A stretch of 42,079 nt of DNA, taken from Candidatus Taylorbacteria bacterium RIFCSPLOWO2_02_FULL_44_35 (lineage in GTDB: Bacteria; Patescibacteriota; Minisyncoccia; Phycocordibacterales; DSPV01). Within the stretch, counting starts at the first letter, position 1. Each line of letters begins with the position of its first letter. Of the stretch, positions 15,479 to 29,337 are shown piece after piece. The position numbers were made by a program, and so were the translations under genes. A model generated the notes under the pieces. The model saw nothing but the letters and a program-made list of their open reading frames with translations. It was not told where the DNA came from and did not search any database. The stretch is taken from assembly GCA_001822695.1 (NCBI GenBank), contig MHSF01000023.1:1257-43335 (forward strand). Direction: 5' to 3'.

Positions 15479-17224
15479 TTACATTTTTTCCGGTGCCTGA
15501 ATACCCAATAACCAAAGGCCGTTTTTTAAAACGATGGAAACGGCGCGGGTTAAGGCAAGACGATAATTCTCTTCTTTAGAATTAATAATTTGATTGTGGG
15601 CGTAAAAATTATTGAAAGCGCTGGCTAATTCAATAAGATAAGTGGCGACATAATGCGGTTCGTATTCCGCCGCCGCCCGCGCCGCCACTTCCGGAAAGCG
15701 ATAAAGTGACCGTTCTAAAATCTTCGGACTCAAAGGTTCAACCTTGGAGAATTTTTTTTGGGTCTTTAAAGGTTGAACCTTTATTTCTTCGGTTTTTGCT
15801 AACACCGACCTCGCCCGAGCGTAGGTGTATTGCAAATACGACCCCGAATCGCCTTTAAAAGAAATGGATTTTTCAAAATCGTAAATAATATCGGCACCGA
15901 TATTCTGCTTCAAAATGGAATACTTAATTGCGCCGACGCTAACTTGTTCGGCAATTTTTTGCTTCTCTATCGCCGGTAAATCTCGCTCCGCCACTTTTTC
16001 CGCCACTAAATTCTCCACCGTGCTAATCAGCGACTCACCGGTAACGACATTGCCTAACCGCGACGACATTTTGCCGGAAGCGAACCGCAGCAGACCGTGG
16101 GAAATATGCTTTGTCTTTTCTGCAATCACCGGCATCACCTCCTCCATCGCTTTGAGTACTACCTTGAAATAGTCGCTCTGCTCGTTGGCGGTAACAATAA
16201 CTGACTGGTTTATATCCGGCTCTTTTTCAAACTTCGCTCTGTTTAGCCCAAGCTCCTTGGCCTCGTAGGTTGGGAGTCCTTGTGAAGTGATAAAAACTCT
16301 GGTGTGCAGCCCAAATTTTTCTCCTCGGAAGATAACGGCGTTTTCGCTTTTCTCAAACACCCCCTTCTTCAAAAACTCGGCGACAATTTTCTCGCCCTCA
16401 CGCCCTTCTTGGCTCTCAAAAAAGTAGTAATCAAACTTCGTGCCAAGCTTTTTATAGATTTCCTCAAAGTGCGCCAAACTTATCTTCCGCCCTTCTTCGT
16501 AGAGTTTGTTCACTTCCGGGTCTGACTTTTCAAAAATTTTCTTATTCAAATCATCAATTTCTATCTTGGCTTCGGGGTCTTTTTCATAAGCGGCCGATCC
16601 CATAACATAAGCTTGCCCCAACAGAGCAACGGCATCATTTTGAAAATTGAAAATTGAAAATTGAAAATTGTTCTTCAAAACTCCCCAAATCGCCTTCGCC
16701 ACATGAAGTCCGACATCGCCTTGCCAACAGGCGCGGACTACTTTCGCGCCGGAAAATTCAATAAGCCGCGCGATTGATTCGCCGACGGCGTTGCTCATTA
16801 AGTGGCCAATATGAAATTCCTTGAACGGATTAGGGTTGGTGTATTCCACCATCACCTTTTTGCCAGCGAGCGTTTGGTTTTTGCTGAAATTTTCGCCTTG
16901 GGCGAAAATTTCAGCCAGCGAGTCGGCAAAAAATCTCGACGACAGGTAAAAATTTATGAACCCTGCACCCGCGATTTCTGTCCTTTCTAAAAAGGCGAAA
17001 CCCCGCCACGGCGGGGTTTCGCCTTTATTCTTAATCTCCGCAACAATCTTTTCCGCCACCTCTCTCGGCTTCATCTTGAGTTCTTTGGCATACACCAACG
17101 CCACATTTGTAGAATAATCCCCATGCGCCAAATCCGCCGGGTGTTCAAGCAAGATTCCCCTCGCTTCAATATCTAAATTCTTTAATGCCCCCTTAATTAA
17201 ATCTGTGAGCTTTTCCTGAATCAT
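15479..17224 (-). CDS. argS: arginine--tRNA ligase
   Basis: 581 aa. HIGH-type FHIGHLMSNAVGESIARL, an N-terminal Arg_tRNA_synt_N-like region, YLQYTYARARSVL, and a C-terminal ...GIQAPEKM typical of ArgRS. Confidence 0.95.
   Translation of the reverse strand: MIQEKLTDLIKGALKNLDIEARGILLEHPADLAHGDYSTNVALVYAKELKMKPREVAEKIVAEIKNKGETPPWRGFAFLERTEIAGAGFINFYLSSRFFADSLAEIFAQGENFSKNQTLAGKKVMVEYTNPNPFKEFHIGHLMSNAVGESIARLIEFSGAKVVRACWQGDVGLHVAKAIWGVLKNNFQFSIFNFQNDAVALLGQAYVMGSAAYEKDPEAKIEIDDLNKKIFEKSDPEVNKLYEEGRKISLAHFEEIYKKLGTKFDYYFFESQEGREGEKIVAEFLKKGVFEKSENAVIFRGEKFGLHTRVFITSQGLPTYEAKELGLNRAKFEKEPDINQSVIVTANEQSDYFKVVLKAMEEVMPVIAEKTKHISHGLLRFASGKMSSRLGNVVTGESLISTVENLVAEKVAERDLPAIEKQKIAEQVSVGAIKYSILKQNIGADIIYDFEKSISFKGDSGSYLQYTYARARSVLAKTEEIKVQPLKTQKKFSKVEPLSPKILERSLYRFPEVAARAAAEYEPHYVATYLIELASAFNNFYAHNQIINSKEENYRLALTRAVSIVLKNGLWLLGIQAPEKM
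16640..16670. repeat. tandem heptanucleotide repeat (TTGAAAA) x4.4 inside argS
   Basis: ttgaaaa x4 then ttg. Encodes NNFQFSIFNFQN on the minus strand. Confidence 0.95.
16991..17026. repeat. 36-nt perfect palindrome inside argS (terminator-like)
   Basis: AAAGGCGAAACCCCGCC ac GGCGGGGTTTCGCCTTT. In frame, encoding ..KGETPPWRGFAF.. Confidence 0.95.
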
Positions 17225-17233
17225 AAAACCATT

Positions 17234-18247
17234 TTAGCACACAATCTGTTTTGCTCCCCAGAAATCAAGGATGGTTTCCGTTAATTGATAACAATTTCCA
17301 CACTTCAAAAGCCCGAGGTAAGAAGTGATTGATTCCTGTTTCGGATTTTCTACCAAACGCTTAAACATTCTTCTTTTTGTTGTCATCCGCAAAACTCGGT
17401 GGTTGGGAAAATGAACCCAACCCAAAAAATCCGCGCCCGAAGCAACAGTTTTGATAAAGATTTTATCAATATTAATTTCCAGTTTTAGTGTGTCCCGCAA
17501 AAAGTTTTTCATTTGGAACAAAATTTCCTCAAGCCAAGTCCTACTTTCCGAAAAAACAACAAAATCATCGGCGTAGCGGATGTAAAATTTCGCTTTTATC
17601 TTATGCTTCATAAATTGGTCAAATTCGTTAAGGTAAATGTTGGCGAATAATTGCGAAGTTAAATTGCCGAGTGGCAAACCTCTTCCGTAAAAACCAGCGG
17701 TGTAAAAACTGTTGATGATTTCAGCGAGAAGTTGAATAATTTCTTCATCAAAAATTCGCTTGCGTAAAATTCGCAATAAGATTCCGTGGTCAATATTGGC
17801 AAAAAACTTCCTGATGTCGCATTTCAAAACCCAACAGGATTTTGTATTGTTTTTGCTAACTTTCCAGACAAATGTACGAAAACGATTGATAGCTTTGTGA
17901 GTTCCTTTTTCGTTTCGGCAGGAAAAAGAATCGGCAATGAAAGTTTGGTCAAAAAATGGATAAAGTTTTCGATATACGGCTCGATGAAGCAAGCGGTCGC
18001 GAACACTTGCCTTGTGAATATTTCTTGGCTTCGGGTCAGAAATTCTGAAAGCTCGGTAACTACCGTGGCGATAGGTTTTTGCTCGCAAATCATTATGAAG
18101 CGAAATGACATTATCCATCAGACGCAAACTAAATTCCTGCACATCCAGCTTTTTTCTTTTTCCTTTCACAAATTCTCTCCAAGCGCCGAGCAAGTCTTCC
18201 AAAGAAATGATATCCTCGTAGCTATGGTTGAATTGAATCCCACTCAT
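17234..18247 (-). CDS. DGR reverse transcriptase (intact)
   Basis: LPLGNLTSQLFANIYLNEFD (DGR-diagnostic [IL]G.LTSQ motif), YADDFVVF catalytic box, and an N-terminal LLGAWREFVKGKRKK..PKPRNIHKASVRDRLLHRAV. Collinear with Bordetella phage Brt as recalled. The ATG at 18247 (MSGIQF) is preferred over 18322, which would overlap avd. Confidence 0.93.
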   Translation of the reverse strand: MSGIQFNHSYEDIISLEDLLGAWREFVKGKRKKLDVQEFSLRLMDNVISLHNDLRAKTYRHGSYRAFRISDPKPRNIHKASVRDRLLHRAVYRKLYPFFDQTFIADSFSCRNEKGTHKAINRFRTFVWKVSKNNTKSCWVLKCDIRKFFANIDHGILLRILRKRIFDEEIIQLLAEIINSFYTAGFYGRGLPLGNLTSQLFANIYLNEFDQFMKHKIKAKFYIRYADDFVVFSESRTWLEEILFQMKNFLRDTLKLEINIDKIFIKTVASGADFLGWVHFPNHRVLRMTTKRRMFKRLVENPKQESITSYLGLLKCGNCYQLTETILDFWGAKQIVC

Positions 18248-18277
18248 TCTATAAAGGTTACCCCCCCCCAACGCTTT
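18248..18277. promoter_or_regulatory. 30-bp RT/avd divergent spacer containing a C9 homopolymer (18261-18269)
   Basis: tctataaaggttaCCCCCCCCCaacgcttt lies between the RT ATG and the avd TTG. The paralogous spacer at 20629-20657 carries C8. Confidence 0.4.
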
Positions 18278-18661
18278 TTGCCAGTGGTGGAGAAACTTAA
18301 ACAAGGATATTTTCTTTGGCACCAGTGCCTTGAACTTTTGCCAAAGACCCAGAAATATTCCATTGGTAATCGTATAGATAAACTTTTGATTGAAAGTATT
18401 GAAGCCGCGGTAACTGCCACCTTTTTGCCAAAAGAGGAAAAACTGCCGTGGCTGCGATTAGCTATAAGAAAATTGGATACAGCAAAAGTTCTCCTTATGA
18501 TTGTGTGGGAAACAAAATCTTTGGATGATAAAAAAATCGTCGGGCTTTCAGAAATTTTAAATGATGCCGGTAAAATGCTCGGCGGTTGGAATGGCCAACT
18601 ACAAAAATACTTAAGAGAAAACTCCCCCAGAATTGCCCGAGGGCAAACGGGGGAGAAATGA
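18278..18661 (+). CDS. avd: Avd-like accessory variability determinant (four-helix-bundle protein), copy 1, TTG start
   Basis: LPKTQKYSIGNRID...KLDTAKVLL..WETKSLDDKK...LGGW. The same pattern appears in copy 2 at roughly half identical residues by eye. Only the 3' 384 nt of ORF 17786-18661 is used. Confidence 0.85.
   Translation: MPVVEKLKQGYFLWHQCLELLPKTQKYSIGNRIDKLLIESIEAAVTATFLPKEEKLPWLRLAIRKLDTAKVLLMIVWETKSLDDKKIVGLSEILNDAGKMLGGWNGQLQKYLRENSPRIARGQTGEK
18622..18655 (-). terminator. hairpin plus U-run immediately 3' of TR1, embedded in the avd1 3' end
   Basis: CTCCCCC...GGGGGAG outer stem with inner TTGCCC/GGGCAA. The minus-strand reading is followed by a T-run. The structure, but not the sequence, is conserved in cassette 2. 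Confidence 0.5.
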
Positions 18662-18667
18662 AGAGAG

Positions 18668-18793
18668 TTGCGACACGGCAAACGCAAACCCATTCTCATG
18701 ATTCCACTTGTTGTCGGGGTTGTCGTAGTAAGCGTTAAGCCACTGACCATTGTCGTTACGATTCGCGCTGAGCAGATTCGGGTCGCCGTCAGA
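18668..18793 (-). repeat. DGR template repeat TR1
   Basis: 126 nt. Asn-codon-rich (AAT/AAC) in the minus-strand sense. Aligns to 19122-19250 with 13 mismatches at TR adenines. Confidence 0.85.
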
Positions 18794-18857
18794 AATGTGC
18801 AGAATGCCTCCCATTTCACCACCCCTTGAATACTCTCGGGGTTGTATCGCATTCGGC

Positions 18858-18885
18858 ATCACAATGCCTTAGTATCTTGCACCAA
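18858..18885 (-). promoter_or_regulatory. candidate TR1 promoter (TTGGTG-16 nt-TGTGAT)
   Basis: Both hexamers and the spacing are conserved with cassette 2 (TTGGTG-16-TATGAT at 21225-21252). Confidence 0.35.
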
Positions 18886-19021
18886 GTATCTTCATTTTTT
18901 TTATTTTACGCGTGTCACTCCGTTTGAATTCTTAAACACAAACGCTCTCAACGCGCGGATACTGGATTCGGCGGAAAGAAACCATAGTCCCTTTCGGATT
19001 GGCCTACTACCGTGGCTTAGT

Positions 19022-19121: not shown

Positions 19122-19250
19122 TTGCGACACGGCAAACGCAAACCCACTCCCATGATTCCACTAGTTGTCGGGGCGGAAGTCGTCGTCCGCGTCAAGCCAC
19201 TGACCAGTGCCGCCACGACTCGCGCTGAGCAGACGCGGGTCGCCGTCAGA
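19122..19250 (-). repeat. DGR variable repeat VR1
   Basis: Adenine-poor counterpart of TR1, lying at the 3' end of the 19104-19730 reading frame. Confidence 0.85.
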
Positions 19251-19730
19251 GTCGTGCACGGGTTCGTGCATGGCAACGATCCAGATCAGCCCCATGGCTG
19301 CGATCTCCTTGTCCGTGAACTTCTCACGGATGAGGCAGACCAGTTCGGCGTTCGGCTTCGAGAGCTTGCGCTTGTCGGCCTCGGCGCGAATCTTCTTCGT
19401 GATCCGATCGTTGTCCTCGAAGAGCATGCCCTTGAGAACGGCGACTTCAGTCGTCATGCCATTGGTCGGCTTGAAGTCCGGCGAACGGAGCACCTGCTTG
19501 GCGTAGTTTCTGACGCGGAAACAGTTGCCTTCCAGACGCTTGATCCAGTCTTCGCCGGTCGTGCCGTCGGAGGTGACACTGAAGTAGATGACACCGTCTT
19601 CCTCGAGCCACGAACGGGTCGGTTCCGAAACCGAGAGTTCATTGCGGAGAAAACGGTCAACCCCTTCCTCCCCGCCGAGTTTGTTCCAGACCGCTTCCAC
19701 GCGGCCGAGGGTAATATCGGGATATTTCAT
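19161..19730 (-). CDS. DGR target protein 1 (C-terminal VR), currently truncated by an in-frame TAG inside VR1
   Basis: Protein-like 189-aa ORF. The frame continues for 18 more codons to 19104 after the TAG at 19161-19163. Full length would be 208 aa, identical to target 2. Confidence 0.8.
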   Translation of the reverse strand: MKYPDITLGRVEAVWNKLGGEEGVDRFLRNELSVSEPTRSWLEEDGVIYFSVTSDGTTGEDWIKRLEGNCFRVRNYAKQVLRSPDFKPTNGMTTEVAVLKGMLFEDNDRITKKIRAEADKRKLSKPNAELVCLIREKFTDKEIAAMGLIWIVAMHEPVHDSDGDPRLLSASRGGTGQWLDADDDFRPDN

Positions 19731-19918: not shown

Positions 19919-20029
19919 CCCGAAATACTACCATAATTGCGCCATAAAAGTCAAGCAAAAATACGAAATATGGCTTTAAATAAAGGTATCTTGGCAAGGG
20001 GAAAATACATAAATAAAAAGGAAGCCGCG
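19916..20029. repeat. 114-bp duplicated promoter module (copy 1)
   Basis: Near-identical to 22238-22351. The first ~68 nt are identical by eye. Confidence 0.85.
19925..19954 (-). promoter_or_regulatory. target-gene promoter (TTGACT-18 nt-TAGTAT)
   Basis: Lies within a 114-bp module near-identical to 22238-22351. A third target-like gene has TTGACA-17-TAGCAT at the equivalent place. Confidence 0.6.
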
Positions 20030-20117
20030 GGCCGCCTGATACGAGGGCTCGCAGCGGACTTCTGCTTCTAACGGGGTCAATAACCAGGTGGGTAACTATC
20101 ATCTTGAAAATTCACTC

Positions 20118-20628
20118 CTAACCATGTTCAAAAATTCGCTTGCGTAAAATTCGTAATAAGATTCCGTGGTCAATACTGGCAAAGAATTTTCTGATGTCGT
20201 ATTTCAAAATCCAGCAGGTCTTGGTGTTGTTTTTGCTGACTTTCCAAACAAATCTACGAAAACGGTTGATGGTTTTGTGAGTTCCCTTTTCGTTTCGGCA
20301 GGAAAAAGAATCGGCAATAAATGTCTGGTCAAAGAATGGGTAAAGTTTTCGGTAAACAGCACGATGAAGTAAGCGGTTGCGAGCACTTGCTTTGTGTATG
20401 TTTCTTGGCTTCGGGTCAGAAATTCTGAAAGCTCGGTAACCTACCGTGGCGATAGGTTTTTGCTCGCAAATCATTATGAAGCGAAATGACATTATCCATC
20501 AGACGCAAACTAAATTCCTGCACATCCAGCTTTTTTCTTTTTCCTTTCACGAATTCTTGCCAAGCGCCGAGCAAATTTTCTGAAGAAATGATATCCTCGT
20601 AACTATGGTTGAATTGAATCCCATTCAT
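20118..20628 (-). pseudogene. DGR reverse transcriptase stub (N-terminal ~170 codons, frameshifted, no catalytic motifs)
   Basis: About 90% nt identity to 17747-18247. One extra C near 20440 splits it into ORFs 20118-20492 and 20416-20724. Homology stops at 20128, so the LTSQ and YADD motifs are absent. Confidence 0.9.
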
Positions 20629-20657
20629 TCTATAAAGGTTACCCCCCCCAACGCTTT

Positions 20658-21020
20658 TTGCCAGTGGTGGAAAAAACTTTATCGGCATACAAACTCTGGC
20701 AGGAAATATTGAAACTTTTTCCAAAAACGACGCGCTATTCTCTAGGTATAAAGATTGATGTTCTTTTCATTGAAATTTTTGAGTCAATTTCGACCGCGGC
20801 ATTTGCCGCCAAAACTGAAAAATCACCTTGGGTTCGGCGGGCAATAATAAAACTAGATACTTTAAAAGGTCTGCTACGGATAGCGTGGGAAATCAAATCA
20901 CTGGATAACAAGAAATATATCACCTTATCAGAACAACTTTCTGAAATCGGCCGCCAGCTTGGCGGTTGGCATAATCAGATTATAAAACAAAACTCTCCCG
21001 CAAAAGCGGGAGAGAAATGA
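20658..21020 (+). CDS. avd: Avd-like accessory variability determinant, copy 2, TTG start
   Basis: 120 aa. FPKTTRYSLGIKID...KLDTLKGLL..WEIKSLDNKK...LGGW. Confidence 0.85.
   Translation: MPVVEKTLSAYKLWQEILKLFPKTTRYSLGIKIDVLFIEIFESISTAAFAAKTEKSPWVRRAIIKLDTLKGLLRIAWEIKSLDNKKYITLSEQLSEIGRQLGGWHNQIIKQNSPAKAGEK
20993..21014 (-). terminator. hairpin plus U-run immediately 3' of TR2, embedded in the avd2 3' end
   Basis: CTCTCCCGC aaaa GCGGGAGAG, a perfect 9-bp stem. The minus-strand reading is followed by TTTTGTTTTAT. Confidence 0.55.
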
Positions 21021-21024
21021 GGAT

Positions 21025-21158
21025 ACTGGCGGGCAGACCGCCGAAGGGTTGTAGTCGTTCCAATCGTTGTCAAGCCAGTTGTAATTCCAGTGCCACTTGC
21101 CATCATTCCAGTACAGATACAACACATAACGGTTACCGTTCGGATTACGAAGAATCGT
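21025..21158 (-). repeat. DGR template repeat TR2
   Basis: 134 nt, rich in AAC/AAT/TAT codons. Aligns without gaps to 21484-21617 (offset 459). Confidence 0.9.
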
Positions 21159-21224
21159 ATAAAGTGTCTTCTGTTCCACCACCCCTCGAAGCTTTCGCGA
21201 TCTTGGGATTGAATCGTATTCGGC

Positions 21225-21252
21225 ATCATAATGCCCTAACACTTTACACCAA
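21225..21252 (-). promoter_or_regulatory. candidate TR2 promoter (TTGGTG-16 nt-TATGAT)
   Basis: Conserved with 18858-18885. Confidence 0.35.
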
Positions 21253-21395
21253 GTAACTTCATTTTTTGAAGTGTCTTCATACACCACTCTATCCAAAACC
21301 TTAGTTGTGGATACTCACGATGTATGGATACTGGATTCGGTAGCGGAAAACCGTAATCTCCCGCGTATTCACCTACTGCCGCAGATAATTTTAGC

Positions 21396-21427
21396 ATAAA
21401 AAAGACCCCGCGTTCGAAAACACGGGG
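21396..21427 (-). terminator. intrinsic terminator of target gene 2
   Basis: CCCCGUG/CGCGGGG stem (one G-U pair) followed by UCUUUUUUAUG on the minus strand. Confidence 0.65.
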
Positions 21428-21467
21428 CCGAGAACTAAATTCAAAGGATTCAAAAGACCTAAACGAC

Positions 21468-22094
21468 CTAGTTCTGAGGACTAACTTGCGGGCAGACCGC
21501 CGAAGGGTAGTAGTCGTACCAAGCGCGGTCAAGCCAGCGGTAATACCAGTGCCACTCGCCACCAGACCAGTCCAGAGACAACACAGAACGGTTACCGTAC
21601 GGACTACGAAGAATTGTGCCGTCAAAGAAAATATAGGTCGTATTGTCATTCGTCTTTTTCTTCCAACTTTCTGGAATAAGAGTTTTATCATTCCAGAGAG
21701 TCTCGAAAACCTTGGCGTTCAGACAAATGTGGCCCGCTTTCTTGAGACGCTTCAGCTTCTCCTCCCCGTTGATACTGATCTCATCTTTTTTGAGCATCGT
21801 CTCAAGACGAATTTTGCTGAAATCCACCTCTGTGAGAGCGAGCGACCGCTTGTCTTCCTCGTCTATGGTCCAACCACTACCGATAAACTCGGCGGGGTTG
21901 AAAGGGGTGGTGCGGTCGACGATGACCAGAATTCCAGCTTTCTGACTAAAGTGTTTGACCAAGTCGGACCAGAGGGGGTGGTCGGATGACTCGATGATAG
22001 ACTGAATTTCCTCCCCGTCTGCCTTCATTGCGCCAAGCTTTTCAGCGACAAGTTTCCCCATCTCAAACTGCTGACCGATTGTAATTATGTTCAT
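21468..22094 (-). CDS. DGR target protein 2 (C-terminal VR)
   Basis: 208 aa from the ATG at 22094 (MNIITIG). VR2 ends 13 nt before the stop codon. The N-terminal SSDHPLWSDLVKHFSQK motif is shared with the 28547-29189 paralogue. Confidence 0.85.
   Translation of the reverse strand: MNIITIGQQFEMGKLVAEKLGAMKADGEEIQSIIESSDHPLWSDLVKHFSQKAGILVIVDRTTPFNPAEFIGSGWTIDEEDKRSLALTEVDFSKIRLETMLKKDEISINGEEKLKRLKKAGHICLNAKVFETLWNDKTLIPESWKKKTNDNTTYIFFDGTILRSPYGNRSVLSLDWSGGEWHWYYRWLDRAWYDYYPSAVCPQVSPQN
21484..21617 (-). repeat. DGR variable repeat VR2
   Basis: 16 of 17 internal mismatches to TR2 are at TR adenines (hand alignment). Confidence 0.9.
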
Positions 22095-22240: not shown

Positions 22241-22351
22241 CCCGAAATACTACCATAATTGCGCCATAAAAGTCAAGCAAAAATACGAAATATGGCTTTA
22301 AATAAGGATATTTAGCAATAGAGAAATGCGTAAATAAAAGAGGAAGCCGCG
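22238..22351. repeat. 114-bp duplicated promoter module (copy 2)
   Basis: See 19916-20029. Confidence 0.85.
22247..22276 (-). promoter_or_regulatory. target-gene promoter (TTGACT-18 nt-TAGTAT), copy 2
   Basis: Identical to 19925-19954. Confidence 0.6.
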
Positions 22352-22557: not shown

Positions 22558-23181
22558 CTAATTTCTTGTCAAATCGGAAATTATTTTCAGGAAGTCATTC
22601 CTAACTTTGTCAATATTTTGATTGGCGTCAATTATTTTATGCGGCACATTTTTGGAAAACTCAAGAAAACCAGAGTGAACCCGTTTGTGAAAAGCCAGTT
22701 TGCGCTCGTCAAAATGGGTTTTCTTTACTCTCCGCAAAGCAACGCGCGCCAAGCCGATTTCTGGTTTGACATCAAAGAAAATGTAAAAATCCGGAGCTGC
22801 CTCTCGCAAATAAATTTCCCGCGTTTGCCAAAACAAATCCTTTAAATTCCGCGCGCCTTGGGCGCAAATTTGGTAAGCGTAAGTAGAAGAATCAAAACGA
22901 TCACAAATAACATTTTTGCCTCTTGCCAAAGCCGGTAAAATTTTATGCTGCAAATGGTCAGCCCGGGCCGCCCACATAAGACCGAATTGCGTTTCCGCTC
23001 CGGATTCTTTCGCCTCTTTTGACAAAACCAGCGTCCGAATTTTGTCGGCAAATTCCGTCCCGCCTGGTTCGTAGGTAAGCAAAAACTTTTTTCCAAACGA
23101 CGTTTCAGCAAACCATTTCAAAATCGCGGTCTTCCCGCTCCCCTCACCGCCGTCAACAACTATAAATTTTCCCCGTTTCAT
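22558..23181 (-). CDS. tmk: dTMP (thymidylate) kinase
   Basis: [15 protein letters not shown]-loop, about 207 aa, DRF/ YAYQ-type motifs. Confidence 0.9.
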
Positions 23182-28546: not shown

Positions 28547-29189
28547 TCAAAGGATCCCAAGAAAGTTGCGGAGGAAAAACCGGTCAACAACACCCCACCC
28601 GCCGGCGCCAAACGAGGCCAGGCCGACAGGCCACCTCCTACCAACCCGGCGCACATCGACAACCGAGACGCTTCCGTTTTTGTTTTCCACAAAGAAGGAG
28701 TTGTTCCAACCATCGGTCCGAAGACCAACATCCTCTCCGCTTTCTTGGCGCTCAATGAGCGCCTCAATGGCAGGAAGTGAGGTGTAGCTGCGTTCCTTTG
28801 GGAGTTTTGGAAAAGGTAAGGATACTCTCGGCCACTTGCTTGAAGGTCGCGATCCCCGTCAGCTCGTAGATCTCGAACTGACTCGCATCCTGGGCGGACT
28901 GGTTTGTGGGCAGAAACTTGTCCAAGTCAGCGTCGCGGTAGTAATACCGCGTTTGGTTCGTGAAGCAGTCGGCGGTGGGTTTGGCTTCCGTCGCCGGAAC
29001 CGCCACCACTTTGCCGATAGAACGGAGGACGGATTTGATTTTCTGGCCGAAGTGTTTGACCAGATCGGACCAGAAGGGATGTTCAGATGATCGAAGCGCT
29101 CCTTTCAGGGCTTCCGCGTCATCATTCCGAGGAAACCGACGGGCAATCTGCGCCACAAGTTCGGCAAACATTTCGGGGGTAGTATTCAT
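28547..29189 (-). pseudogene. third DGR-target-like paralogue, split by a +1 frameshift
   Basis: N-terminal frame 28764-29189 shares SSEHPFWSDLVKHFGQK with target 2. A second open frame (28547-28858) encodes ..DGWNNSFFVENKNGSVSVVDVRRVGRRWPVGLASFGAGGWGVVDRFF... Combined length of ~213 aa matches the 208-aa targets. Confidence 0.6.
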
Positions 29190-29337
29190 TTTTTGTTAGC
29201 CGCAACAAAACGCGTATACCGTGTGCCTCGATGTGAGACCTTATCGGCTGACATTTAGTTGCGGAACACGAACTATTTCATTAAGAAACAGGCCATATTC
29301 CGCAACCAATAACTCAATTTCAAGGTTCAAAATTACT
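29190..29337 (-). promoter_or_regulatory. structured 5' leader homologous to the target-2 leader
   Basis: GTTGCGGAA/TTCCGCAAC hairpin (29258-29306), a TCAGCCGATAAG box, and a TTGCGG segment at 29200-29205. Confidence 0.45.

What the first reader, a model, noticed from the sequence alone, without database searches (positions are those of the whole stretch)
20118..21617. RT-less second cassette with its own Avd and a freshly diversified VR implies trans-acting RT
Cassette 2 keeps only a frameshifted N-terminal RT stub (20118-20628). It has an extra C near 20440, its homology ends at 20128, and it lacks the LTSQ and YADD motifs.

Even so, TR2 and VR2 differ at 16 TR adenines and at only one internal non-adenine position, over a gap-free 134-nt alignment. 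avd2 is intact.

The simplest reading is that RT1 services two different TR RNAs, each paired with a different Avd (about half of residues identical by eye). How one RT would cooperate with two diverged Avd/TR sets is not something I know to have been characterised.
Basis: partly seen in the sequence, partly recalled or inferred. Interest (0 to 1): 0.8.

Follow-up and report, generated by a model that had tools for sequence, protein, structure and literature searches.

The report
Second retroelement cassette with broken RT
A groundwater Patescibacteria (Candidatus Taylorbacteria) genome carries two tandem diversity-generating retroelement cassettes, and the upstream one lost most of its reverse transcriptase in a recombination accident, but public data show no sign that the surviving enzyme still rewrites its target.

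Summary
Cassette 2 has target2/VR2, TR2, an intact avd2 and only a frameshifted 5' RT fragment. TR2 and VR2 differ at 16 adenines and one internal non-adenine.

The inference of a trans-acting RT is not required, and the one available test does not support it.

- **Origin of the stub.** It is fused through an 8-nt microhomology to the last 12 codons of a second thymidylate kinase (tmk) gene. Two allelic tmk-DGR-argS loci were joined in tandem.
- **History of the stub.** It differs from RT1 mainly at synonymous sites, so it was a working RT until recently. That RT could have written VR2 in cis.
- **Population data.** VR2 is nucleotide-identical in every contig that holds it (29 by protein count, at least 13 assemblies). 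VR1 shows five variants; the three intact ones differ from TR1 only at adenines, so RT1 is or recently was active on TR1.

Trans service stays plausible. Every non-RT part of cassette 2 is intact. Both TRs carry the same covarying 5' RNA element. An RT about 90% identical to RT1 natively partners an avd2/TR2-type cassette.

RT-disrupted DGR loci that keep their own TR, and possible RT use in trans, were already discussed by Doré et al. (Thiohalocapsa).

Interest is moderate.

The parts
22558..23181 (-). Thymidylate kinase (tmk), full length. This is the upstream anchor of the conserved tmk-DGR-argS locus.
   Evidence: Pfam Thymidylate_kin E=1e-35. Relatives L001 and L097 have the same synteny.
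22247..22276 (-). Promoter-like site P2 upstream of target2 (TTGACT-18-TAGTAT with an upstream TG). It lies inside a 114-nt block (22351-22238) repeated upstream of target1.
   Evidence: About 85 nt are identical between the two copies.
21468..22094 (-). target2, 208 aa, with VR2 at its C-terminal end. It belongs to a family of 291 Patescibacteria proteins.
   Evidence: The AlphaFold model has pLDDT 87.5 but no significant PDB fold match.
21484..21617 (-). VR2
   Evidence: Differs from TR2 at 16 adenines, one internal T>G and two fixed boundary positions. Identical in all 23 fetched loci that hold it.
21140..21273 (-). Structured RNA element directly 5' of TR2 (outer stem P1 enclosing hairpins P2 and P3). 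The TR/VR homology starts at the 3' end of P1.
   Evidence: Covariance model R1 scores 125.6 bits. Covariation is shown.
21025..21158 (-). TR2
   Evidence: It is 98.5% identical to the TR of lineage L001. Position 68 (window 21091) is a derived A that is also present in VR2.
20993..21014 (-). Terminator-like hairpin just after TR2. It overlaps the codons for the Avd2 C-terminal tail on the other strand.
20664..21020 (+). avd2, 118 aa, intact, transcribed divergently from the RT stub.
   Evidence: Pfam bAvd E=1.9e-12. NCBIfam DivGenRetAVD E=5e-17. The exact protein is in the public collection as P0001. All alleles seen are intact.
20128..20628 (-). RT stub: codons 1 to about 166 of a DGR RT, with a +1 frameshift at 20439/20440. 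LGNLTSQ and YADD are missing.
20128..20135 (-). Junction microhomology ATTTTTGA, shared by the RT reading frame and the tmk 3' end.
   Evidence: Three-way alignment with the tmk end of L001.
20098..20133 (-). Remnant of the 3' end of a second tmk allele (FLNMVRSEFSR plus stop). It is followed, down to 19863, by that allele's native intergenic region.
   Evidence: 86.5% identical to the tmk end and intergenic region of L001.
19925..19954 (-). Promoter-like site P1 upstream of target1.
19161..19730 (-). target1, 189 aa as it stands. It is cut short by a TAG (19163-19161) that corresponds to an AAG codon in TR1. The natural stop is at 19106-19104.
   Evidence: Intact 207-aa variants are P0026, P0028 and P0029.
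19122..19250 (-). VR1
   Evidence: Differs from TR1 at 13 adenines, 3 T>G and a 3-nt insertion. Five population variants are seen.
18780..18906 (-). Structured RNA element directly 5' of TR1.
   Evidence: Model R1 scores 122.9 bits.
18668..18793 (-). TR1
   Evidence: Invariant in all 16 loci that hold it.
18284..18661 (+). avd1, 125 aa.
   Evidence: Pfam bAvd E=1.5e-7, below the cut-off. NCBIfam DivGenRetAVD E=8e-13. 51% identical to Avd2.
17234..18247 (-). RT1, 337 aa, intact, with LGNLTSQ and YADD.
   Evidence: Pfam RVT_1 E=7e-28. Sequence.
15479..17224 (-). Arginyl-tRNA synthetase (argS), the downstream anchor of the locus.

Best explanation
The window comes from a Candidatus Taylorbacteria (Patescibacteria) groundwater population. 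Close relatives carry one DGR between tmk and argS, in the order target/VR, TR RNA, avd (opposite strand), RT.

Here two diverged alleles of that locus lie in tandem. An illegitimate recombination at an 8-nt microhomology joined codon ~166 of one allele's RT to the last 12 codons of the other allele's tmk. Cassette 2 (target2, TR2, avd2) therefore kept only an RT stub, which later or at the same time gained a +1 frameshift. Cassette 1 kept the complete RT1.

- **Shown:** the scar, the intact parts of cassette 2, and VR1 variation confined to TR1 adenines in the population, which indicates RT1 activity on TR1.
- **Inferred:** the A-specific TR2/VR2 differences were written by cassette 2's own RT before the truncation and have simply been retained. 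Too little time has passed for decay.

Cassette 2 is at present a static, still expressible target gene with an idle TR/avd set. RT1 could probably use TR2 RNA, but no data show that it does.
For: **The scar.** Stub homology to RT1 ends at 20128. The next 36 nt encode FLNMVRSEFSR plus a stop. Together with the following ~230 nt they match the tmk 3' end and intergenic region of lineage L001 at 86.5%. The join lies at the shared ATTTTTGA.

**A recently working RT.**
- Stub versus RT1: 27 synonymous and 13 non-synonymous codon differences, with 31 of 44 changes at third positions.
- Changes unique to the stub: 10 synonymous, 7 non-synonymous.

**Relatives.** L001 and L097 have one cassette-2-type DGR with a full RT at the same locus. 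None of 80 related Patescibacteria loci has a second avd or an RT fragment.

**Population data.**
- VR2 occurs as one sequence only: 3 cluster members that differ only in start codon, on 6, 15 and 1 contigs in the cluster listing and 29 once all 22 contigs carrying P0008 are counted. It is identical in all 23 fetched loci that hold it.
- VR1 has five variants in the same background, with TR1 invariant. In the three intact variants every difference from TR1 is at an adenine, and nearly all differences from the window over about 7 kb lie inside VR1.
- Non-majority VR forms: 0 of 29 contigs for VR2 against 4 of 20 for VR1, P=0.023. Against the orthologous VR of the sister species with an intact RT, entered as 18 of 55 (17 if P0169 is pooled with the majority form), P=0.0002.
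Against: - Every non-RT part of cassette 2 is intact: promoter, target ORF, TR, RNA leader (125.6 bits) and avd2.
- TR2 position 68 is a lineage-specific derived A that VR2 also carries. At least one homing event is therefore recent on the scale of the 1.7% avd2 divergence from L001.
- Invariance in consensus assemblies is weak evidence. The L001-type VR, which has an intact cis RT, is also invariant in its 11 contigs. Contigs from re-assembled samples are not independent.
- The order of the last homing event and the truncation cannot be established from these data.
Confidence: 0.6

Rival explanations
1. RT1 services both template RNAs in trans. The TR2 RNA carries the clade's 5' element and is bound by RT1 together with Avd2 (or Avd1). 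VR2 is still rewritten, but rarely or only under certain conditions.
For: - Cassette 2 is intact apart from its RT.
- The TR RNA appears to be its own transcription unit in this clade, so the RT would always meet it in trans.
- Both TRs carry the same covarying RNA element, with compensatory differences between the two cassettes in stem P1.
- Both VRs end in the same 10-nt CGCAAGTTAG.
- The L001 RT is about 90% identical to RT1 in protein, with DNA up to 99% identical in the core. It natively partners an avd2/TR2-type set whose VR shows 22 A-only changes.
- The derived A68 of TR2 was copied into VR2.
Against: No VR2 variant exists in any public assembly, while VR1 varies in the same genomes. 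Nothing dates any homing event to after the truncation. Avd1 and Avd2 are only 51% identical, and their specificity is untested.
Confidence: 0.27
2. A different intact RT serves TR2. It lies either elsewhere in the genome or in a coexisting structural variant that still has a full RT next to avd2.
For: Contig L005/L103 shows window-type target2, VR2 and TR2 followed by a full 357-aa RT. Doré et al. found such coexisting intact variants at degraded DGR loci.
Against: - L005 is 100% identical to the window up to about 20961. It then switches to the sister species' avd, RT and argS.
- Contig L014 from the same sample begins at 20958, which is the pattern of an assembly-graph branch.
- That RT's native context, as seen in L097, carries a different 204-aa target. 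L005 is therefore probably a chimeric contig.
- All fetched contigs carrying target1 P0025 with enough upstream sequence have the stub arrangement.
- The rest of the genome could not be searched, because the organism is not in the genome collection.
Confidence: 0.08
3. The two-cassette arrangement or the frameshift is an assembly artefact.
For: Several contigs of this population are mosaics with a sister species (L102, L005, L006, L003). One NCBI scaffold has a run of N inside the stub.
Against: The junction shares only 8 nt between its two sides, so k-mer overlap cannot create it. The junction and the frameshift recur identically in MEGAHIT and ANAN16-scaffold (ENA) and NCBI assemblies.
Confidence: 0.02

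Closest known systems
Canonical diversity-generating retroelement (Bordetella phage BPP-1 type: target/VR, avd, TR, RT)
   Same: - Adenine-specific TR-to-VR differences, with the VR at the 3' end of the target ORF.
- An Avd accessory protein.
- An RT with the ...SQ and YADD motifs.
- Fixed TR/VR differences at the 3' boundary, like IMH versus IMH*.
- Components that work when supplied in trans from a plasmid (Wu et al. 2018, PMC5758913).
   Different: - avd is on the opposite strand, divergent from the RT. This holds in 77 of the 80 related loci; the other three lack enough upstream sequence.
- The TR RNA ends at its own terminator-like hairpin right after the TR.
- The conserved structured RNA lies 5' of the TR. 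In BPP-1, from my memory, the required spacer lies 3' of the TR.
- Here there are two TR/avd/target sets for one intact RT.
Degraded DGR loci of Thiohalocapsa PB-PSB1 (Doré et al., bioRxiv 10.1101/2023.09.22.558884)
   Same: Loci that lack a complete RT but keep their own TR. The authors raise use of another RT in trans, pre-disruption diversification, and coexisting intact variants as explanations.
   Different: There the disruption is caused by transposons and the VRs are diverse in reads. Here the cause is an illegitimate recombination that fused two alleles of one locus, the second cassette has its own diverged Avd, and VR2 shows no diversity.
Patescibacteria (CPR) DGRs (Paul et al. 2017, cited from memory and via PMC6602519 and PMC8632793)
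   Same: Small chromosomal DGRs with short target proteins. The RT family is very large (7629 proteins at E<=1e-100).
   Different: None of 80 species-level relatives has a second avd or an RT stub. I could not read Paul et al. to check whether they describe multi-TR loci.

Membership tests
Diversity-generating retroelement (cassette 1) | Intact DGR-type RT with the (I/L/V)GxxxSQ and YxDD motifs | tested here: met
   RT1 is 337 aa, matches RVT_1 at E=7e-28, and contains LGNLTSQ and YADD.
Diversity-generating retroelement (cassette 1) | TR/VR pair with adenine-specific differences at the 3' end of a target ORF | tested here: met
   13 A mismatches, but also 3 T>G and a 3-nt insertion in the window's VR1. 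Variants L014-L016 differ from TR1 only at adenines.
Diversity-generating retroelement (cassette 1) | VR varies among genomes while TR stays constant | tested here: met
   5 VR1 variants and 1 TR1 sequence.
Diversity-generating retroelement (cassette 2) | TR/VR pair with adenine-specific differences at the 3' end of a target ORF | tested here: met
   16 of 17 internal mismatches are at A, P=2e-9.
Diversity-generating retroelement (cassette 2) | Avd accessory gene | tested here: met
   Pfam bAvd 48 bits against a cut-off of 40. NCBIfam DivGenRetAVD E=5e-17.
Diversity-generating retroelement (cassette 2) | Own intact RT | tested here: not met
   Only codons 1 to about 166 remain, and they are frameshifted.
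Diversity-generating retroelement (cassette 2) | VR varies among genomes while TR stays constant | tested here: not met
   One VR2 sequence in 23 fetched loci and 29 contigs. Only consensus assemblies were available, not reads.
Diversity-generating retroelement (both cassettes) | Variable residues displayed on a C-type lectin or Ig-like fold | tested here: inconclusive
   The target2 model has pLDDT 87.5, but the best PDB match is E=0.56, with weak C-type lectin hits at TM about 0.3. There are no Pfam or PDB sequence hits.
RT-less DGR cassette complemented in trans | VR rewriting after loss of the cis RT | tested here: not met
   No VR2 variant is seen among stub-bearing contigs. Timing relative to the truncation cannot be resolved.
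RT-less DGR cassette complemented in trans | The resident RT can use the orphan TR RNA and Avd | not testable with these tools
   Indirect support only: the shared RNA element, and a ~90% identical RT that natively partners an avd2/TR2-type set.

The most novel reading that the evidence does not exclude
RT1 does rewrite VR2 from TR2 RNA, at a low or conditional rate, using Avd2 or Avd1. This would be a natural system with one RT, two Avds and two templates.

In addition, the conserved promoter block and the shared avd-5'/RT-5' segment may act as recombination handles. These would let whole target-TR-avd modules be swapped between Taylorbacteria lineages. That would explain why the RT is 92% identical between the two cassettes while Avd is only 51% identical, and why mosaic contigs such as L102 exist.
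Probability: 0.25. Interest if true: 0.65.

Novelty: new variant of a known kind. Interest (0 to 1): 0.4.

Why it matters
If RT1 does serve both sets, the locus would be a natural test of how specific a DGR RT is for its Avd and template RNA. That is useful for engineering DGR mutagenesis.

As it stands, the locus shows three things:
- how a DGR cassette can lose its RT through recombination between alleles;
- that an A-specific TR/VR pattern alone does not prove current activity;
- that this Patescibacteria DGR clade has a strongly covarying RNA element 5' of the TR that has no Rfam family.

Tried and rejected
- **Metagenome scan.** Scanning with the VR2 3' end found only two contigs, both of the L001 lineage.
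- **Genome-collection scan.** Scanning with RT1 did not find the window's own genome (best match 78%), so the rest of the genome could not be searched for other RTs.
- **L005/L103.** It looked like VR2 next to a full RT. I rejected it as a probable chimera with the sister species.
- **L003.** Its TR2 G125A looked like a TR mutation that had not been copied into VR2. It is a sister-species patch instead.
- **Remote VRs.** No remote VR for TR1 or TR2 exists in the window, and there is no further RT or avd.
- **Rfam.** No family matches the locus. A hammerhead-like motif in L006 was not confirmed.
- **Structure.** The first target2 model, built from 11 sequences, was unusable (pLDDT 40.6). The second model (pLDDT 87.5) gave no significant PDB match.
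- **Relaxed constraint in the stub.** The comparison (10 synonymous to 7 non-synonymous, against 9 to 2 in RT1) is not significant, P=0.25.
- **Literature.** Full-text searches failed repeatedly, as did several paper look-ups. Paul et al. 2017 is not held. The novelty judgement therefore rests on few papers.
Full report
**Anatomy.**
All DGR parts lie on the minus strand except the two avd genes. Reading the minus strand, the order is:
- tmk (23181-22558)
- promoter-like site P2 (22276-22247)
- target2 (22094-21468), with VR2 at 21617-21484
- a terminator-like hairpin
- a structured RNA element (21273-21140)
- TR2 (21158-21025)
- a terminator-like hairpin (21014-20993)
- avd2 on the opposite strand (20664-21020)
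- the RT stub (20628-20128)
- a remnant of a tmk 3' end (20133-20098) with its intergenic region
- promoter-like site P1 (19954-19925)
- target1 (19730-19161), with VR1 at 19250-19122
- the second RNA element (18906-18780)
- TR1 (18793-18668)
- avd1 (18284-18661, plus strand)
- RT1 (18247-17234)
- argS (17224-15479)

This layout rests.

- The stub is 91% identical to the first 500 nt of RT1.
- It carries one extra base at 20439/20440, and its homology to RT1 ends at 20128.
- It stops before LGNLTSQ and YADD.
- TR2 and VR2 align over 134 nt without gaps. They have 16 mismatches at adenines, one internal T>G, and two mismatches 3-4 nt from the ends.
- Those two end mismatches recur in lineages L001 and L097, so they are fixed TR/VR boundary differences.
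- The adenine bias has a binomial P of 2e-9.
- avd2 is intact and a clear Avd. It is 51% identical to Avd1.
- The stub, frameshift and junction recur in eleven independent assemblies, nine ENA and two NCBI.

**What the stub is.**
Beyond 20128 the sequence is not random. It encodes FLNMVRSEFSR plus a stop. Together with the next ~230 nt it matches the 3' end of tmk and the tmk-DGR intergenic region of a related lineage (L001) at 86.5%. The RT reading frame and the tmk end share ATTTTTGA exactly at the join.

Relatives L001 and L097 each carry a single DGR between tmk and argS. The window therefore holds two alleles of one locus fused in tandem by an illegitimate crossover. The fusion removed the 3' two-thirds of the upstream RT.

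None of 80 related Patescibacteria loci shows a second avd or an RT fragment. The event is specific to this lineage.

**The stub was a working gene until recently.**
- Against RT1 it differs at 27 synonymous and 13 non-synonymous codons, and 31 of 44 changed bases are at third positions.
- Changes unique to the stub are 10 synonymous and 7 non-synonymous.

An RT that could write VR2 in cis therefore existed shortly before the rearrangement. No trans-acting enzyme is needed to explain the TR2/VR2 pattern.

**Population test.**
- The exact target2 protein occurs on 29 contigs. The only variants differ in the called start codon. The next cluster is 81% identical and belongs to lineage L001.
- VR2 is nucleotide-identical in all 23 fetched loci that hold it. 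These include loci chosen through tmk or target1 rather than through target2.
- In the same genomic background, VR1 has five variants while TR1 is invariant.
- In contigs L014-L016 nearly all differences from the window over about 7 kb fall inside VR1, and all their differences from TR1 are at adenines.

RT1 is therefore active, or was very recently, on TR1, but no rewriting of VR2 is seen.
- The contrast of 0/29 against 4/20 gives P=0.023.
- Against the orthologous VR of the sister species, which has an intact RT, the count entered as 18/55 gives P=0.0002. It is 17/55 if P0169 is pooled with the majority form.

Caveats:
- Contigs are consensus sequences and are not independent.
- The L001-type VR, which has an intact RT, is also invariant in 11 contigs.

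**Why trans service remains plausible.**
- Cassette 2 is intact in every part but the RT.
- A TR RNA in this clade seems to be a separate unit with its own terminator-like hairpin.
- Both TRs are preceded by the same RNA element. It has an outer stem P1 that encloses two hairpins. Model R1 finds it once in 70 of the 80 related genome-collection loci, once each in L001 and L097, and exactly twice in the window.
- Across 74 sequences, 95% of cells pair and 21 of 24 pairs show compensatory change. This far exceeds the shuffled and slid controls.
- The two cassettes differ by compensatory changes in P1.
- The TR/VR homology begins at the 3' end of P1.
- Both VRs end in CGCAAGTTAG.
- The RT of L001 is about 90% identical to RT1 in protein, and its DNA is up to 99% identical in the core. 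It sits beside an avd 98% identical to avd2 and a TR 98.5% identical to TR2, and its VR carries 22 A-only changes.
- TR2 position 68 is a derived A that VR2 also carries. Homing therefore happened after this lineage split from L001. Whether that was before or after the truncation cannot be told.

**Misleading contigs.**
- L005/L103 appears to place VR2 next to a full RT. It is identical to the window up to about 20961 and then becomes the sister species (L097 type).
- L014 from the same sample starts at 20958.
- L102, L006 and L003 are similar mosaics, with switch points in the conserved promoter block or in the avd-5'/RT-5' segment.

These may be assembly chimeras, or real module swaps between lineages.

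**Comparison with what is known.**
- This is a DGR of the large Patescibacteria clade.
- DGR components acting in trans from a plasmid are reported in Wu et al. 2018 and in a 2021 review.
- RT-disrupted loci that keep a TR, and the possibility of borrowing another RT, are discussed by Doré et al..
- Wu 2018, the Roux 2020 preprint and the MyDGR paper describe no locus with two TR/Avd sets and one RT. The literature tool mostly failed, so this check is thin.

**Verdict.**
- The trans-RT inference is possible but not implied, and the available test is negative.
- Best explanation: a recombination scar with an inherited VR2 state, confidence 0.6.
- Trans service by RT1: 0.27.
- Interest: 0.4.

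Noticed in passing
window 21273-21140 and 18906-18780 (minus strand); L017-L097, about 520-650 nt upstream of each RT start: A conserved structured RNA lies directly 5' of every TR in this Patescibacteria DGR clade. Stem P1 encloses two hairpins, 95% of cells pair, and 21 of 24 pairs show compensatory change. It has no Rfam family. The TR/VR homology starts at the 3' end of P1.
   Followed up: yes
window 19163-19161 and 19174-19193: The window's VR1 is the majority form in the population. It carries a TAG where TR1 has AAG, which truncates target1 by 18 residues. It also has three T>G changes and a 3-nt insertion that adenine mutagenesis of the present TR1 cannot explain. The minority variants are intact and differ from TR1 only at adenines.
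   Followed up: partly
window 18261-18269 and 20642-20649 (minus strand): A run of 9 or 8 G sits in the 36-nt gap between the divergent avd and RT start codons. Its length differs among contigs, which in some fuses upstream ORFs to the RT. This could be slipped-strand variation in expression, or a sequencing artefact.
   Followed up: no
L102/L110, L005/L103, L006, L003/L100: These contigs are mosaics of the window type and a sister species (L097 type). The switch points lie in the conserved promoter block or the avd-5'/RT-5' segment. They are either assembly chimeras or real swaps of target-TR-avd modules.
   Followed up: partly
window 17234-18247 versus 20128-20628, and avd1 versus avd2: The two cassettes are strongly discordant: the RT is 92% identical in protein, with a 108-nt stretch that is identical, while Avd is 51% identical and the targets are unrelated. 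High similarity begins at the first codons of avd.
   Followed up: partly
window 28764-29189 (minus strand) and 29040-29329: A 141-aa ORF shares a 27-residue motif (SSxHPxWSDLVKHF) and about 290 nt, spanning its 5' coding end and upstream DNA, with the 5' region of target2. It has no VR.
   Followed up: no
window 19124-19115 and 21490-21481: Both VRs end in the same 10 nt, CGCAAGTTAG, while the two TRs differ from it and from each other at that point. This may be a shared homing boundary.
   Followed up: no
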